From: Escherichia phage vB_EcoM_JNE01
Reading direction: 5' to 3' (one strand)
Length of the DNA stretch: 64,000 nt
Sequence record: OR670491
Below, piece by piece: positions 37,669-53,369 of the stretch. The position numbers and the translations under genes are program-made. Positions within the stretch are counted from its first letter, which is position 1, and every line of letters begins with the position of its first letter. The notes under the pieces are model-generated. The model was not told the DNA's origin, did no database searches, and worked only from the letters and a program-made list of their open reading frames with translations.

Positions 37669-37696
37669 AAAGCCAGTACAAAGTACTGGCTTTATT
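37669..37696. terminator. bidirectional rho-independent terminator
   Basis: GCCAGTAC-AAA-GTACTGGC flanked by an A-run and a T-run, between convergent genes. Confidence 0.65.
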
Positions 37697-38902
37697 TTAT
37701 ATACCACGACTGGGTATTTGATATAATTGGAATTTAGTGTAGTAATCAGAAACTGTTGTCCCGGCTGCTTGTGGGATATAGCCACTCAAATACACATCCC
37801 CTTGATTATCCATATACACTGTTGTACATTCACTTGAACAGAATAACTCGGTGTTAGATACTTTAGGAGCATCAACTGGTGTTACAAATGTAGTACTTGA
37901 TGTTGTATTACCGCGACCGAGCTTACCATACGTGTTTATACCACACATATAAAGTGAATCGGCAGTTTTAACCGTAAGCCCACCATATGTTAATGAATTT
38001 GATTTCATTTCCATATCATCTGATATTGGTAGAGTGGAGATAGTGGATAATACTGTCCAAGAATTAGCGGATGAACCATTACCCAAGTTACCATCGGACT
38101 GAATCCCACTTGCACGAACTGTATATGTATTATTCGTGTTGTGTTTATATACAACCCATGATGCACTCCCACCGAGTTCATAATGTATAACAGTATTGTT
38201 GGCGAATGCACCCATTTGTGTCCATACTCTAATGTTAGTTGCATTATTACTTATACCAAGCGAACCCCATGTGTTTTGACCAGTGACCCAAAGTGTTTTA
38301 TCAATTTTCTGCACAATCACTGCACTTGAACCTGTTTTAACACTATCAACATTCGTATTAATTGACGTAAAAGTTGATAATCTAGTGGTTGTGTTATTAC
38401 CAAAATATCCCTGTGTATTCGTCCCCATTCCATATAGCGTACCATTTTCAAGTAAAACAAAAATACCCTCACCTACAAGTTGAATGTCCTTAATTTGGGA
38501 CAATTGTGTAGCATTGAATACTGATGTAAAATATGAAGTACAATCAGTATAAGTACTGGCAGTACTTAAACCTGCACCAATAGCTTTACCAACCCCACTG
38601 TAATAAAATTTATTATCTTCAGTTTGGATTAAATTAAAAGTACCTTGGGCTGTTCTGAAACGTTTTACATTTTGGTATATTAAAGTCCATTCTTTTACTT
38701 TCGCATTATGTACACCATTCCCGAATCCATAGTTTTGTGAAGTAGTTCCACCTATACCCATTAAGTCTCCATTTTTATATAATAGTAAGAGTGCTGTTGC
38801 TGGAATTACTGACGCACTATAACCATTGTACATAAAGATTTCTTTCACTTCAGGAACTTTCATTTTATTAGCGTATTTAACCATTCTTGCAAAAGGTAAC
38901 AT
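37697..38902 (-). CDS. RCC1-like beta-propeller repeat protein, paralog 1
   Basis: 401 aa; N-terminus MLPFARMVKYANK; Gly/Asn/Thr/Ser-rich repeats typical of RCC1-like blades. Confidence 0.6.
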   Translation of the reverse strand: MLPFARMVKYANKMKVPEVKEIFMYNGYSASVIPATALLLLYKNGDLMGIGGTTSQNYGFGNGVHNAKVKEWTLIYQNVKRFRTAQGTFNLIQTEDNKFYYSGVGKAIGAGLSTASTYTDCTSYFTSVFNATQLSQIKDIQLVGEGIFVLLENGTLYGMGTNTQGYFGNNTTTRLSTFTSINTNVDSVKTGSSAVIVQKIDKTLWVTGQNTWGSLGISNNATNIRVWTQMGAFANNTVIHYELGGSASWVVYKHNTNNTYTVRASGIQSDGNLGNGSSANSWTVLSTISTLPISDDMEMKSNSLTYGGLTVKTADSLYMCGINTYGKLGRGNTTSSTTFVTPVDAPKVSNTELFCSSECTTVYMDNQGDVYLSGYIPQAAGTTVSDYYTKFQLYQIPSRGI

Positions 38903-38979
38903 AAAATCCTCCTTTATTCATTATACTATATTTAGCCAAAAAGGAAAAGCCAGTACTTGAGTACTGGCATTATAAAGAA
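38903..38979 (-). repeat. conserved inter-paralog unit (terminator hairpin, -10, RBS)
   Basis: Minus strand reads GCCAGTACT-caa-AGTACTGGC + T-rich, then TATAATGAATAAAGGAGG before ATG; near-identical copies between most array genes. Confidence 0.6.
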
Positions 38980-40155
38980 TCAAATTGTAGGAAGTAGGAA
39001 TTCTTTCATAACAGATGAACTACTCGCACTGACATTATCTGGTGATTTCCCTGCGTAGTATAATTTATTATTAATGAACATATATAATGTTGCATCATTC
39101 CCTGCAACAAGAGAAACCTCTTTATTAAAAACAACACCACTAGGTAAAATTGCTTCAACGAATGAACCTGATTCGCGTGTGGTATTATTTGCTAATTGAC
39201 CATTGTTATTATAACCAGTACTATAAATTTTACCTGAACTATAATACACAAGCCCACGTGTACTAGTGTTTTCTATACGAAGGAATTCACTATCATCTGG
39301 AACTGAAGTTGATAAAGTTGCATTTAACTTATAAGCGGATGTTGTATTATTATTACCCAACTGACCATAACCTTGATATCCTAGTGTATACATAGGACAT
39401 GATTCTGGTGTACCTTTAGTTATAACACCAAAATAATTCGAACTACAAAAAGCGTCTATAACTTCTGTAACAGGTGTACCCTTATATTGAACCCAAGGGA
39501 ATACATATGATTGTTGTTTGCCATTCCCTAAAGTACCAGAGCTTGTTGTTCCGGTACGCCATATTGTATCATCAAGTTTAATAATCCAGTTAGCAGATGT
39601 TATAGATGAACAGAATTTTTTAACATTATCAATTAAGTATGTAAATTTATTATAATATGATGCAGTGTTTAGCCCAAACTTAGCACCAGTATTATCACCT
39701 AACAAATATAAACTATTATCAGTACCTAAAATGACAGCATAATCATAACCTACATATATCTCTTTTATTTTTGAAATACCAAATTGTGTAAAATAGCTTG
39801 TACATTCAGTGAATGTTGTTACTGTATTTGTTGTATTATTACCTAACCATTTATCAAAACCACTAAAAAAGAATCTATCATCATTTGTGCGTATTAGACA
39901 AAAAGCGTTCCCTGTACTACACCAGAAATCTTTAACATTGCTATATATTTTTGTCCATTCCTGTACCTGTGTCGTATTACCTAGACCAAAAATACCACCA
40001 TTTTGAAGACCGATGGCCCATACTGAACCATTTTTATCAAGTAGCATTGTAGTTGTAAATGAGTATCCAGATGATGGTGTAACCAATTTAACAAAATTTG
40101 GGATATATGGCACGACCTTATTTCCGTACTTAGCCATCCTTGCAAAAGGTAACAT
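38980..40155 (-). CDS. RCC1-like beta-propeller repeat protein, paralog 2
   Basis: 391 aa; MLPFARMAKYGNK; motifs GYNNNGQLANNT and GYQGYGQLGNNNT. Confidence 0.6.
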   Translation of the reverse strand: MLPFARMAKYGNKVVPYIPNFVKLVTPSSGYSFTTTMLLDKNGSVWAIGLQNGGIFGLGNTTQVQEWTKIYSNVKDFWCSTGNAFCLIRTNDDRFFFSGFDKWLGNNTTNTVTTFTECTSYFTQFGISKIKEIYVGYDYAVILGTDNSLYLLGDNTGAKFGLNTASYYNKFTYLIDNVKKFCSSITSANWIIKLDDTIWRTGTTSSGTLGNGKQQSYVFPWVQYKGTPVTEVIDAFCSSNYFGVITKGTPESCPMYTLGYQGYGQLGNNNTTSAYKLNATLSTSVPDDSEFLRIENTSTRGLVYYSSGKIYSTGYNNNGQLANNTTRESGSFVEAILPSGVVFNKEVSLVAGNDATLYMFINNKLYYAGKSPDNVSASSSSVMKEFLLPTI

Positions 40156-40229
40156 AATTTCTCTCCTTTATTCATTATAATGTATTTACCCAAAAAAAGA
40201 AATGCCAGTACTGGAGTACTGGCATTATA
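40156..40229 (-). repeat. conserved inter-paralog unit
   Basis: GCCAGTACTCCAGTACTGGC hairpin, TATAATGAATAAAGGAG. Confidence 0.55.
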
Positions 40230-52561: not shown

Positions 52562-52747
52562 ATGAATGAGCACAGAGAGTACTACATAAAGAGACTTCAC
52601 CCCGACCTACGAGATACTATACCATTCGTTCCACATAATATACATGAACCCGTAGTGCAGTACTACTTTAATATAACAGTACAAGCCGCATTAAGTGAAT
52701 ATAGACTTGAGTACTTCACTGTACTAAAACTTATATATAAGTACTAA
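52562..52747 (+). CDS. small-ORF array member 15
   Basis: MNEHREYYIKRLHP ... LKLIYKY. Confidence 0.45.
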   Translation: MNEHREYYIKRLHPDLRDTIPFVPHNIHEPVVQYYFNITVQAALSEYRLEYFTVLKLIYKY

Positions 52748-52812
52748 CCCCTTGACATATACTCCAAGAATGATATACTACTTTCTATATAGAAACAATA
52801 CAGAGATAACAT

Positions 52813-53022
52813 ATGCACGAACATAAAGATTTCTATGTAAGCCAACTCCCCGTAATAGACCAATTCTGGTTAGCTGATGCAGCACCGTGTAATACAGATA
52901 CTAAGTACGGACAATTGTGCTTTGTTGAATCTATAAAGAAAGTACTACAACAAGATAAAACTAAGTACCGTAAAGAAAAAGACTTGTACTTTAATATAGT
53001 AGAACTTACCTTTATGTTCTAG
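52813..53022 (+). CDS. small-ORF array member 16
   Basis: MHEHKDFYVSQLP ... VELTFMF. Confidence 0.45.
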   Translation: MHEHKDFYVSQLPVIDQFWLADAAPCNTDTKYGQLCFVESIKKVLQQDKTKYRKEKDLYFNIVELTFMF

Positions 53023-53343
53023 TATAGAGAATAGTACAGGATACTAAGGTCTAGATGTGTTCCTAGGGAAGCATTATAACAGGCTTTAACATCTCGTAAA
53101 GATGTTAAAATTCAGCCTGCTCGACGTCTGAATTGTTAAAATTCAGCCTGGACAAATGCGATCACTAGGATTCTATCTAGGCTGAATCCCGTAATCACAA
53201 GTACGCATATGTAATCATATATAAACATTTCCGTGAGAAGTTTTGAGTACTGTATAGTATTAAGAATCACCGTAGGAGCACAGAATGATTAAGAATGCAC
53301 GGGAATGATTCAGAATGATTCAGTACTGATATGTCACTAAGTA

Positions 53344-53369
53344 GGCAGAGGAAGTCTGCCGTACTTTTT
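53344..53369 (+). terminator. rho-independent terminator (approximate coordinates)
   Basis: GGCAGA-ggaag-TCTGCC followed by GTACTTTTT. Confidence 0.45.

What the first reader, a model, noticed from the sequence alone, without database searches (positions are those of the whole stretch)
37669..53369. Back-to-back hypervariable gene arrays: nine RCC1-like propeller genes and about 16 small ORFs around one divergent control region
Two tandem paralog arrays abut at a ~100-bp divergent region (48966-49066): nine ~400-aa RCC1-like genes on the minus strand and about 16 ORFs of ~60 aa on the plus strand. Both families keep their ends and junction DNA conserved while their cores diverge, and both are bounded by terminators (37669-37696 and about 53344-53369). 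About 15 kb given over to diversified repertoires suggests a host-interaction or anti-defence arsenal, or a cassette-exchange locus. I cannot tie either family to a characterised phage system.
Basis: partly seen in the sequence, partly recalled or inferred. Interest (0 to 1): 0.85.

Follow-up and report, generated by a model that had tools for sequence, protein, structure and literature searches.

The report
Tagged propeller cassettes in a jumbo phage
At one end of a giant E. coli phage genome lies a bank of nine self-contained late genes, each giving a virion protein made of the same 12-residue N-terminal tag plus a different beta-propeller, next to an unrelated bank of about 17 tiny early genes; the arrays were already published, but the shared tag and the cassette design were not found in the papers searched.

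Summary
The window is an Asteriusvirus-type jumbo coliphage (121Q/PBECO4/phAPEC6 group). It carries nine minus-strand RCC1-like propeller genes (one frameshifted) and 16 plus-strand ORFs of about 60 aa, with a 17th family member beyond the far end of the array.

Published work already reports both arrays, and phAPEC6 proteomics detected eight array members in virions.

New here: each propeller gene is an autonomous cassette of hairpin terminator, T4-type late promoter and Shine-Dalgarno site. Each protein starts with an invariant 12-aa leader, MLPFxRMxxYGN. The leader lies outside the predicted fold and is followed by a proline-rich linker. Related phages put the same leader on unrelated domains (Kelch, ConA-like, glycine-rich). 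It is conserved from Escherichia to Xanthomonas phages, with synonymous variation.

Orthologous cassettes are under purifying selection (dN/dS 0.13-0.46; one pair 0.88). Diversity comes from old paralogs and cassette gain, loss and reordering, not from hypermutation.

The small ORFs form an orphan helical family behind a sigma70-type promoter. I found no sign of a link to the propellers.

Best reading: a docking-peptide-tagged bank of accessory virion binding modules. The main rival is a T4-internal-protein-like packaged cargo. The "DNA condensation" annotation gets no support from charge, and peptide counts suggest too few copies.

The parts
37669..37693 (.). Bidirectional hairpin terminator closing the propeller array (AAAGCCAGTACAAAGTACTGGCTTT)
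   Evidence: dG -15.6 to -15.9 kcal/mol on either strand, z about -5.3 to -5.5.
37697..38902 (-). Cassette 1: leader MLPFARMVKYAN plus an RCC1-like propeller, 401 aa
   Evidence: Ortholog in PBECO4 at 91% identity, dN/dS 0.29.
38903..38979 (-). Typical inter-cassette junction: terminator hairpin 38949-38968, late-promoter-like TAAATATAGTATAAT at 38920-38934, then Shine-Dalgarno AAAGGAGG
   Evidence: The same junction, with some variation, lies upstream of genes 1-7. The core matches the T4-type late promoters of phAPEC6 structural genes.
38980..40155 (-). Cassette 2: leader plus RCC1-like propeller, 391 aa
   Evidence: dN/dS 0.18 against PBECO4.
40230..41573 (-). Cassette 3: leader plus a divergent propeller-family body, 447 aa, with no ortholog in the seven genomes compared
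   Evidence: phrog_4219, E 8e-11; no Pfam hit; singleton group 29.
41646..42797 (-). Cassette 4: leader plus RCC1-like propeller, 383 aa; 94% identical to phAPEC6 gp005, which was detected in virions
   Evidence: PMC7247149 Table 1.
42869..44059 (-). Cassette 5: leader plus RCC1-like propeller, 396 aa
   Evidence: dN/dS 0.23-0.27.
44137..45318 (-). Cassette 6: leader plus RCC1-like propeller, 393 aa
45395..46574 (-). Cassette 7: frameshifted (probable pseudogene). Leader ORF at 46395-46574, body at 45395-46471
   Evidence: PBECO4 has the same break; Turkey5 has a 1-nt difference that restores one ORF.
46645..47754 (-). Cassette 8: leader plus RCC1-like propeller, 369 aa. It abuts cassette 9 and has no terminator or promoter junction of its own
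47763..48965 (-). Cassette 9: leader plus a seven-bladed RCC1-like propeller, 400 aa
   Evidence: AlphaFold2 pLDDT 91.3, with residues 1-15 below 50. Foldseek best matches UVR8, HERC2 and RCC1, TM 0.7-0.8.
48966..49066 (.). Back-to-back promoter region: late-type element for cassette 9 on the minus strand (48983-48997) and a sigma70-type promoter TTGACA-17-TACAAT on the plus strand (49015-49043)
   Evidence: 89% conserved in six phages, with both elements kept.
49067..50306 (+). Small ORFs 1-6 (59-81 aa) of the phrog_11711 family, mostly translationally coupled
50316..50990 (+). 224-aa ORF (phrog_29152, unknown function) interrupting the small-ORF array
   Evidence: The same interruption is present in 121Q, G17, PBECO4, Turkey5, EcMJ and phAPEC6.
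50974..53022 (+). Small ORFs 7-16 (59-69 aa); a second sigma70-type promoter at 52752-52779 precedes the last one
   Evidence: AlphaFold2 of 51392-51583 gives a small helical bundle, pLDDT 85.5.
53344..53360 (+). Hairpin terminator after the small-ORF array, at the boundary of the direct terminal repeat (about 53330)
   Evidence: repeat boundary from vB_Ec-M-J.
36804..37668 (+). 217-aa ORF plus a 17th small-ORF family member (37459-37668) on the far side of the propeller array. This suggests the late minus-strand array sits inside an early plus-strand block
   Evidence: E 3.4e-5; 217-aa against 224-aa ORF only E 0.056, tentative.

Best explanation
The minus-strand array is a bank of interchangeable late-gene cassettes.

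Anatomy. A typical cassette (genes 1-7) is a complete transcription unit: hairpin terminator, T4-type late promoter and Shine-Dalgarno site. Gene 9 uses the divergent region instead, and gene 8 has no junction of its own. Every cassette encodes a three-part protein: an invariant 12-residue N-terminal leader (M-L/I-P-F-x-R-M/I-x-x-Y-G-N), a short proline-rich linker, and a variable globular binding domain. In this window the domain is always an RCC1-like seven-bladed propeller. In relatives it can also be a Kelch propeller, a ConA-like lectin domain or a glycine-rich domain.

Proposed mechanism. The leader is inferred to be a docking peptide that plugs every paralog into the same site on the virion, most likely an external tail, baseplate or fibre site. 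One particle would then carry a mixed set of low-copy accessory adhesins. The conserved junction plus leader DNA would also serve as the homology through which cassettes are gained, lost and reordered between co-infecting phages.

Small ORFs. The plus-strand array is a separate unit. It is transcribed from a sigma70-type promoter, which I infer to be early, and it encodes an orphan family of about 60-aa helical proteins, probably host-takeover or anti-defence binders.

Shown here: the anatomy, the modularity and selection on the leader, the propeller fold, the promoter classes and the repertoire variation.
Taken from the literature: virion association of homologues.
Inferred: external docking, the adhesin role, recombination at the junction, and the function of the small ORFs.
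For: 1. Cassette anatomy. The conserved block of terminator hairpin, TAAATATAGTATAAT, AAAGGAGG and ATG lies upstream of genes 1-7. These motifs occur nowhere else in the 64-kb window. The hairpins fold at -13 to -16 kcal/mol.

2. Late promoter class. phAPEC6 head, tail and baseplate genes carry (T)ATAAATA. gp228c, a protein detected in virions, has CTAAATAAT, the same core as the cassettes. The phage encodes a late sigma factor.

3. Virion association. phAPEC6 gp003, 005, 006, 007, 009, 010, 549 and 551 were detected in virions. All are leader-bearing array members, and window cassette 4 is 94% identical to gp005. GAP32_002, which has the leader but a non-RCC1 body, is annotated as a virion structural protein. 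Three tandem phrog_4219 proteins of the unrelated phage W70 are also in virions.

4. The leader is a separate module. Residues 1-15 have pLDDT below 50, and the first strand starts at residue 26. The same leader sits on a Kelch domain (E 1e-26), a ConA-like domain (6e-9), a Gly_rich_2 domain and a phrog_6011 body. It is conserved in Munch (17 of 17 cassettes), GAP32 and Xanthomonas phage XaC1. In Munch it is kept with free synonymous variation, so selection acts on the peptide. It was found only in the arrays, not in 48 kb of phAPEC6 structural genes.

5. The cargo looks like a distal binding domain. PHROG matches fall on C-terminal parts of baseplate-wedge, tail and virion structural families.

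6. Precedent. A conserved N-terminal peptide of a secondary receptor-binding protein docks on a branching domain and is portable between proteins (PMC13352976). At the same genome end, RaK2 has a minus-strand tail-fibre array with the same terminator plus TATAAATA...TATAAT junctions and conserved N-termini.

7. Repertoire dynamics. There are 29 ortholog groups, 8-15 per genome, in varying order. The leader DNA is 85-89% identical between paralogs whose bodies are 27% identical at the protein level, and slightly more alike within a genome.

8. Small ORFs. A conserved TTGACA-17-TAnnAT promoter precedes them. They are translationally coupled and under purifying selection (dN/dS 0.29). Between Asteriusvirus lineages the best matches are only 19-64% identical, although the backbone is about 90% identical at the DNA level.
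Against: - No docking partner was identified. No structure or experiment places these proteins on the outside of the particle.
- The mass-spectrometry support is thin (1-5 unique peptides each), and only cassette 4 has a close ortholog among the detected proteins.
- The known docking-peptide systems carry trimeric beta-helix enzymes, not single propellers. The MLPF leader does not resemble the KP32 peptide.
- 121Q and phAPEC6 have an inner body of unknown composition, which leaves room for an internal location.
- The late class of the cassette promoter rests on a 6-of-7 match to a short AT-rich motif in an AT-rich genome. No transcript data were available.
- Concerted evolution of the leader is modest (0.89 against 0.85 identity, non-independent pairs).
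- Nothing speaks directly to the function of the small ORFs. There were no fold or family matches outside the family itself.
Confidence: 0.5

Rival explanations
1. Capsid-targeted cargo, working like the T4 internal proteins. The 12-aa leader would be a capsid-targeting sequence that loads the paralogs into the prohead core. The propellers would then be injected with the DNA as a bank of binders or decoys against host defences, or would help build the inner body.
For: - A short identical N-terminal tag on unrelated cargo in a variable locus is what T4 IPI, IPII and IPIII show (my own knowledge of T4).
- Head morphogenesis here is T4-like: a gp21-type protease and scaffold, and an LTE|S-type site in the major capsid propeptide.
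- 121Q and phAPEC6 have an inner body of unknown composition.
- Homologues are detected in virions.
Against: - No conserved L/I-x-E cleavage motif follows the leader. Cassettes 2, 7 and 8 have no Glu at all in the first 30 residues.
- The cargo folds (propellers, ConA-like lectin) resemble distal domains of tail and baseplate proteins in PHROGs.
- Peptide counts are lower than for the 12-copy portal, which suggests few copies, not the hundreds an inner body would need (W70 spectrum counts). This is a rough inference.
- The pI is near neutral.
Confidence: 0.25
2. DNA-condensation or chromosome-organising proteins, as GenBank annotates them and as the phAPEC6 authors suggested. The RCC1-like proteins would bind and order the packaged 350-kb genome.
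For: - RCC1 fold.
- Virion association and an inner body.
Against: - The pI is 5.1-8.6 with only about 6-7% Lys plus Arg, while 36-43% of residues are Ser, Thr, Asn or Gly. This is unlike DNA-compacting proteins.
- RCC1 is a generic propeller scaffold, with 118,698 library hits at E<=0.001.
- The same tag carries Kelch, lectin-like and glycine-rich domains.
- Copy number ranges from 1 to 17 among phages with genomes of similar size.
- One cassette is a pseudogene.
Confidence: 0.07
3. The two arrays form one functional pair system, for example a small-protein partner, chaperone or inhibitor for each propeller, co-regulated from the shared divergent region.
For: - The adjacency and the 89% conserved intergenic region are kept in all Asteriusvirus genomes examined.
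- A 17th small ORF flanks the other end of the propeller array.
Against: - The promoter classes differ: sigma70-type against late-type.
- The numbers do not track: 15-19 small ORFs against 8-15 propellers.
- GAP32, Munch and XaC1 have propeller cassettes, whereas the one small ORF used as a tblastn query hit only Escherichia and Salmonella jumbo phages of this group.
- The window and Turkey5 share nearly identical small ORFs but different propeller sets.
Confidence: 0.06
4. Neutral genome filler: tandem duplications that accumulated after capsid enlargement and have no selected function (the idea of Hua et al. 2017).
For: - Tandem arrays are noted in 121Q and phage G.
- Some cassettes are fragments or pseudogenes.
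Against: - Orthologs show dN/dS 0.13-0.46, and the small ORFs 0.29.
- The leader is conserved at the peptide level across genera.
- Promoters and terminators are retained.
- The proteins are made and found in virions.
Confidence: 0.04

Closest known systems
Secondary receptor-binding proteins with a conserved N-terminal docking peptide (KP32 gp38, KP34 gp57, K1-5; PMC13352976, PMC6872550)
   Same: [quoted passage not shown] It is needed for virion incorporation and is portable to unrelated cargo. It allows several binding proteins on one particle. The rV5-like phage W70 has RCC1 virion proteins whose own leader, MLEMLNL, matches the KP32gp38 contact pattern L2-D3-x-F5-N6 conservatively.
   Different: Here the tag is 12 aa, against 29 aa deleted in KP32. 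Its sequence is unrelated. The cargo is a single propeller rather than a trimeric beta-helix depolymerase. There are 9-17 paralogs rather than one. No T4gp10-like partner was identified.
Branched tail-fibre gene arrays of the sister jumbo phages RaK2, phiK64-1 and phiKp24 (PMC10253068)
   Same: A minus-strand array at the right genome end. Each gene has a hairpin terminator, a TATAAATA-type late promoter and a conserved N-terminus ahead of a variable C-terminal host-binding part.
   Different: The RaK2 N-terminal modules are whole domains of CBA120 or G7C type, and the cargo is depolymerases of 570-1113 aa. RaK2 has no MLPF leader and no RCC1 genes.
T4 internal proteins IPI, IPII and IPIII with their capsid-targeting sequence, in a polymorphic locus
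   Same: An identical tag of about 10 aa on unrelated cargo, a variable repertoire between relatives, and T4-type head assembly genes in the same phage.
   Different: The T4 tag ends in a prohead-protease site (L/I-x-E). No such conserved site follows the leader here. T4 internal proteins are small and basic, whereas these are 40-kDa, near-neutral propellers.
PeSL elements, the promoter-early stem-loops of T4-like phages (PMC2839356, PMC4122927)
   Same: A composite terminator-plus-promoter motif repeated between variable genes in a plastic region. Insertions, deletions and swaps between close relatives map to these junctions.
   Different: The promoter here is of late type rather than sigma70 early type. 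The repeated unit extends into the first 12 codons. The flanked genes are one tagged family rather than unrelated ORFans.
Published RCC1 or 'DNA condensation protein' arrays in phAPEC6, 121Q, Munch and fEgEco12 (PMC7247149, PMC5646251, PMC8273493, PMC13070987)
   Same: This is the same locus and family. The tandem repetition, the virion mass-spectrometry hits and the inter-strain differences have already been noted.
   Different: Those papers treat the genes as DNA-condensation candidates or as duplication filler. In the passages I read, none describes the leader, the cassette junctions, the non-RCC1 cargo or the promoter classes. A full-text search for the leader sequence found nothing.

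Membership tests
RCC1-like seven-bladed beta-propeller (Pfam PF00415/PF25390; PHROG 4219) | Sequence match to RCC1 repeat or RCC1-like domain profiles | tested here: met
   Eight of nine hit Pfam (E 1e-13 to 3e-27 for PF25390, below its whole-domain cut-off; 7 of 9 also pass the RCC1 and/or RCC1_2 repeat cut-offs). All three tested members, including the ninth, hit phrog_4219, and the other members align with them.
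RCC1-like seven-bladed beta-propeller (Pfam PF00415/PF25390; PHROG 4219) | Seven-bladed propeller fold | tested here: met
   AlphaFold2 pLDDT 91.3 and pTM 0.89 for cassette 9. Foldseek to UVR8, HERC2 RLD and RCC1: E 1e-23 to 1e-16, TM 0.7-0.8. Only one cassette was modelled.
RCC1-like seven-bladed beta-propeller (Pfam PF00415/PF25390; PHROG 4219) | Chromatin or DNA condensation or Ran-GEF activity (the basis of the GenBank product name) | tested here: inconclusive
   There is no Ran or chromatin in bacteria. A pI of 5.1-8.6 and low charge argue against DNA compaction. Biochemistry cannot be tested here.
Docking-peptide secondary receptor-binding proteins (KP32 gp38 type) | Short conserved N-terminal peptide outside the folded domain, shared by otherwise unrelated proteins | tested here: met
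Docking-peptide secondary receptor-binding proteins (KP32 gp38 type) | The protein is a virion component | tested here: inconclusive
   Evidence is from the literature on homologues only: phAPEC6 mass spectrometry, the GAP32_002 annotation and W70 mass spectrometry. It is not testable for this window's proteins.
Docking-peptide secondary receptor-binding proteins (KP32 gp38 type) | A partner with a T4gp10-like branching domain that binds the peptide | not tested
   No partner was searched for or found. Whole genomes and complex prediction were outside the budget and tools.
Docking-peptide secondary receptor-binding proteins (KP32 gp38 type) | Cargo is a trimeric beta-helix tailspike or depolymerase | tested here: not met
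   The cargo is a single RCC1-like propeller. This is therefore an analogue, not a member.
T4-type capsid-targeting sequence / internal proteins | Shared N-terminal tag on unrelated cargo | tested here: met
T4-type capsid-targeting sequence / internal proteins | The tag ends at a conserved prohead-protease site (L/I-x-E) | tested here: not met
   The leader ends in YGN. There is no invariant Glu in residues 13-30, and it is absent in cassettes 2, 7 and 8. The major capsid propeptide does show an LTE|S-type site.
T4-type capsid-targeting sequence / internal proteins | Located inside the capsid and ejected with the DNA | not testable with these tools
   Needs fractionation, cryo-EM or injection assays.
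PeSL (promoter-early stem-loop) shuffling elements | A composite stem-loop terminator directly followed by a promoter, repeated between variable genes | tested here: met
PeSL (promoter-early stem-loop) shuffling elements | The promoter is of early (sigma70) type | tested here: not met
   There is no -35 element. The core TAAATA matches the T4-type late promoters of structural genes.
PeSL (promoter-early stem-loop) shuffling elements | Insertions, deletions and swaps between close relatives are bounded by the elements | tested here: inconclusive
   Whole cassettes differ in presence and order, and leaders are partly uncoupled from bodies. Exact breakpoints were not mapped.

The most novel reading that the evidence does not exclude
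The 12-residue leader M-L/I-P-F-x-R-x-x-x-Y-G-N is a universal, portable virion-incorporation signal of the RaK2/121Q/GAP32 clade of jumbo phages. Anything fused to it would be loaded into the particle.

In the most novel version, the loading is into the head. The array would then be a T4-IP-like arsenal of injected propeller 'binders' that neutralise diverse host defence proteins. It would act in concert with the neighbouring early array of orphan helical mini-proteins, so that this genome end would be a two-stage anti-defence island: one stage pre-loaded and one expressed early.
Probability: 0.18. Interest if true: 0.8.

Novelty: new variant of a known kind. Interest (0 to 1): 0.58.

Why it matters
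Three consequences would follow if the reading is right.

1. It would correct a widely propagated annotation. [quoted passage not shown] appears on hundreds of jumbo-phage genes.

2. It would give these proteins a testable role: a mix-and-match bank of virion-borne binding modules. That could explain host-range and adsorption differences between otherwise about 90% identical Asteriusvirus isolates that are being developed for therapy.

3. It would define a very short tag (12 aa plus a linker) that appears sufficient to send unrelated domains into a jumbo-phage particle. Such a tag would be a practical handle for display or host-range engineering, by analogy with the KP32 conserved peptide.

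The cassette junction would also extend the PeSL idea of promoter-terminator-mediated shuffling to late structural genes.

Tried and rejected
- **Exhaustive profile search.** The search with the nine paralogs returned 118,698 RCC1 hits, dominated by giant multi-repeat proteins. It says nothing about how the leader is distributed.
- **IMG/VR scan for the leader DNA.** It found only 121Q itself plus three chance matches.
- **Word-indexed protein searches.** They reached only close relatives.
- **Small-ORF fold and families.** No PDB relative (best E 6.7). The only BFVD relatives were the top two small proteins, one of them from 121Q. No Pfam family. No function could be derived.
- **RNA genes.** No Rfam families in 36-56 kb and no tRNAs in the window.
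- **Hypermutation or diversity-generating mechanisms.** Rejected, because orthologs are under purifying selection. No reverse transcriptase was looked for.
- **Leader as the closing strand of the propeller.** Rejected: residues 1-15 have pLDDT below 50, and the same leader occurs on non-propeller folds.
- **Leader conservation as a purely nucleotide-level effect** (translation initiation or gene conversion). Rejected as the sole cause, because the Munch leaders vary freely at synonymous sites.
- **Signal peptide.** Rejected by inspection: the leader has no hydrophobic core.
- **Homology of the 217-aa and 224-aa ORFs.** Left tentative (E 0.056).
- **CMSTMSU record.** Not analysed, because its array is annotated as many short gene fragments.

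Full report
**Identity and context.**
The window belongs to an Asteriusvirus-type jumbo coliphage of the 121Q/PBECO4/phAPEC6 group. One small ORF is 100% identical to a protein of phage vB_EcoM_JNE01. Window position of about 53330 corresponds to base 1 of the 21.5-kb direct terminal repeat of vB_Ec-M-J. The finding therefore sits at the right end of the unique genome, directly before the terminal repeat.

**Check of the observation.**
Nine minus-strand genes of 369-447 aa fill 37697-48965.
- Eight hit Pfam RCC1/RCC1-like profiles, and all three tested members, including the ninth, hit phrog_4219.
- They are 21-33% identical to each other, except for an almost invariant N-terminus MLPF[AV]R[ML]xxY[GA]N.
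- Gene 7 is frameshifted.

Sixteen plus-strand ORFs of 59-81 aa fill 49067-53022.
- They form one family, phrog_11711.
- A 224-aa ORF interrupts them.
- An HMM of the family finds a 17th member at 37459-37668, on the far side of the propeller array.

**Anatomy of the propeller cassettes.**
Upstream of genes 1-7 lies the same block of roughly 75 bp, with some variation: a hairpin (GCCAGTACTnnAGTACTGGC plus a T-run), then TAAATATAGTATAAT, then AAAGGAGG and the ATG. Gene 9 has the promoter-like and Shine-Dalgarno parts in the divergent region. Gene 8 abuts gene 9 with no junction of its own. These motifs occur only in the array within the 64 kb.

In phAPEC6, the genes for capsid, scaffold, baseplate and other virion proteins carry the T4-type late motif (T)ATAAATA. 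gp228c carries CTAAATAAT, the same core as the cassettes. The phage also encodes a late sigma factor. The typical cassette is therefore most simply read as an autonomous late transcription unit.

**The leader is a module of its own.**
- The AlphaFold2 model of cassette 9 is a confident seven-bladed propeller: pLDDT 91.3, with Foldseek matches to UVR8, HERC2 and RCC1 at TM 0.7-0.8.
- Residues 1-15 have pLDDT below 50, and the first strand starts at residue 26. A proline-rich stretch follows the leader.
- In related genomes the same leader precedes non-RCC1 bodies:
  - a Kelch propeller in vB_Ec-M-J gp585, and by the record's annotation in Turkey5 (Pfam E 1e-26);
  - a ConA-like Laminin_G_3 domain in Munch;
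  - a Gly_rich_2 / phrog_4474 body in Munch and 121Q gp243;
  - a phrog_6011 'virion structural protein' body in Munch and, by N-terminal similarity, GAP32_002.
- The leader is conserved in all 17 Munch cassettes (MIPFxRILxYGN), in GAP32, and as MFPIPIISxYGN in two of the three cassettes of Xanthomonas phage XaC1.
- In Munch the leader codons vary freely at synonymous sites, so selection acts on the peptide.
- A regular-expression scan found the leader only inside the arrays. It found none in 48 kb of phAPEC6 structural genes, none in the RaK2 fibre region and none in the terminal repeat.

**Virion association.**
The phAPEC6 proteome lists gp003, 005, 006, 007, 009, 010, 549 and 551 as virion proteins. 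All eight are leader-bearing array members. Window cassette 4 is 94% identical to gp005.

In the unrelated 137-kb phage W70, three tandem phrog_4219 proteins are virion components, with spectrum counts per kDa somewhat below the portal's. They carry a different shared leader, MLEM[LM]NL.

The peptide counts in phAPEC6 (1-5) are below the portal's 9. This suggests few copies per particle, but it is only a rough inference.

**Evolution.**
Among seven Asteriusvirus genomes I find 29 ortholog groups (at least 55% body identity), 8-15 cassettes per genome, and partly conserved order with insertions and deletions. Cassette 3 of the window is unique among those compared.

Orthologs show dN/dS of 0.13-0.46, with one pair at 0.88. 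'Hypervariable' is therefore the wrong word. These are old, selected paralogs whose repertoire changes by cassette gain, loss and shuffling.

Leader variants (ARMVK, VRMFD, GRMIK and others) follow the genome as much as the ortholog group. The leader DNA is 85-89% identical between paralogs whose bodies are 27% identical, and slightly more alike within a genome. This fits recombination at the junction, but it is not proof.

Copy number runs from about 3 leader cassettes (GAP32, XaC1) to 17 (Munch).

**Mechanism.**
The closest working precedent is the conserved N-terminal peptide of secondary receptor-binding proteins. In KP32 it docks on a T4gp10-like branching domain, is required for incorporation, and can carry foreign cargo.

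The sister jumbo phage RaK2 has, at the same genome end, a minus-strand array of tail-fibre and depolymerase genes. Each has a hairpin, a TATAAATA...TATAAT element and a conserved N-terminus. Those proteins are reported to build branched fibres.

The cargo types found here match C-terminal parts of tail, baseplate-wedge and virion-structural PHROGs.

I therefore favour an externally docked bank of accessory binding modules (confidence about 0.5).

The main rival is a T4-internal-protein-like capsid-targeting tag.
- For it: head assembly is T4-like, and 121Q and phAPEC6 have an inner body.
- Against it: no conserved L/I-x-E site follows the leader.

The annotated 'DNA condensation' role fits poorly with a pI of 5.1-8.6 and low charge.

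**Small ORFs.**
- They sit behind a TTGACA-17-TACAAT promoter that is conserved in six phages.
- Most lack their own Shine-Dalgarno site and are separated by 3-10 nt, so they are probably translationally coupled.
- A representative folds as a small helical bundle (pLDDT 85.5), with no structural or Pfam relatives outside the family.
- tblastn with one small ORF hit only Escherichia and Salmonella jumbo phages of this group, at 15-19 copies per genome.
- Window and Turkey5 copies are 90-100% identical (one at 66%), with pooled dN/dS of 0.29. The best matches in 121Q, G17, PBECO4 and vB_Ec-M-J are only 19-64% identical, even though the backbone is about 90% identical at the DNA level.
- They therefore look like an early, fast-diverging accessory set. 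A host-takeover or anti-defence role is a guess.

I found no evidence of a functional link to the propellers. The promoter classes differ, the copy numbers do not track, and the taxonomic distributions differ.

**What is known and what is new.**
The tandem RCC1 arrays, their virion mass-spectrometry signal and their inter-strain differences are published (PMC7247149, PMC8273493, PMC5646251, PMC13070987). In the passages I read, and in a full-text search for the leader, I did not find any of the following described:
- the shared leader;
- its presence on unrelated folds;
- its conservation across genera;
- the cassette junction with a late promoter;
- the parallel with docking-peptide receptor-binding proteins.

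The library does not cover subscription journals, so prior description cannot be excluded.

Noticed in passing
whole window; densest at 48000-64000: The palindrome AGTACT occurs 243 times against about 22 expected from base composition. Other palindromes of the same composition occur 5-50 times. The extended consensus is tCAGTACTGa. It lies in both arms of the cassette terminators, at both ends of most small ORFs (EYY and KY-stop codons), and in the spacers of sigma70-type promoters in the terminal repeat (for example 53708-53735). It could be an operator or a modification motif.
   Followed up: partly
33550-36419 (+): A third tandem paralog array: eight hydrophobic, membrane-like ORFs of 102-143 aa with a shared basic C-terminal tail (KLxSKIxxKRxx), 14-24% identical to the first, and no Pfam hit in the two tested. 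The same block is present in 121Q, PBECO4 and vB_Ec-M-J.
   Followed up: partly
53023-55105: An ORF-poor stretch of about 2.1 kb spans the left boundary of the direct terminal repeat (about 53330). It has tandem repeats at 54159-54259 (ACGGCTAA units) and 54884-55048 (66 bp x 2.5, rich in AGTACT), and a perfect sigma70 consensus promoter at 53708-53735. It may hold terminus, packaging or origin functions.
   Followed up: no
45395-46574 (-); L005:17781-18960; L002:1627-2805: Cassette 7 carries the same frameshift in the window and in PBECO4. Turkey5 has a 1-nt difference at a T-run that restores one long ORF, but with about 20 residues read out of the ancestral frame. This looks like a decaying cassette with a compensating change.
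   Followed up: partly
L015:3198-6696 (Escherichia phage W70): Three tandem phrog_4219 RCC1 virion proteins in an rV5-like phage share a different leader, MLEM[LM]NL. It matches conservatively the KP32gp38 residues reported to contact the branching domain (L2, D3, F5, N6). This hints that RCC1 cargo is docked by lineage-specific peptides.
   Followed up: partly
L003:1-2360 and L004:10179-12536 (phAPEC6 record MK817115): The two ends of the GenBank record repeat the same two cassettes (about 2.4 kb). This accounts for 352,598 bp in the record against 350,175 bp in the paper. It is probably an assembly overlap, so gp550/gp551 duplicate the first two cassettes.
   Followed up: no
50001-54000: GC skew stays negative (-0.10 to -0.14) and AT skew strongly positive (+0.09 to +0.17) across the plus-strand small-ORF array. 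This is opposite to the other plus-strand genes of the window, so these genes have an unusual C>G, A>T coding-strand composition.
   Followed up: no
47763-48965 (-) against L002:7355-8557: Cassette 9 compared with its Turkey5 ortholog gives dN/dS 0.88 (dN 0.045, dS 0.051), far above every other pair. This may be a local recombinant patch or positive selection.
   Followed up: no
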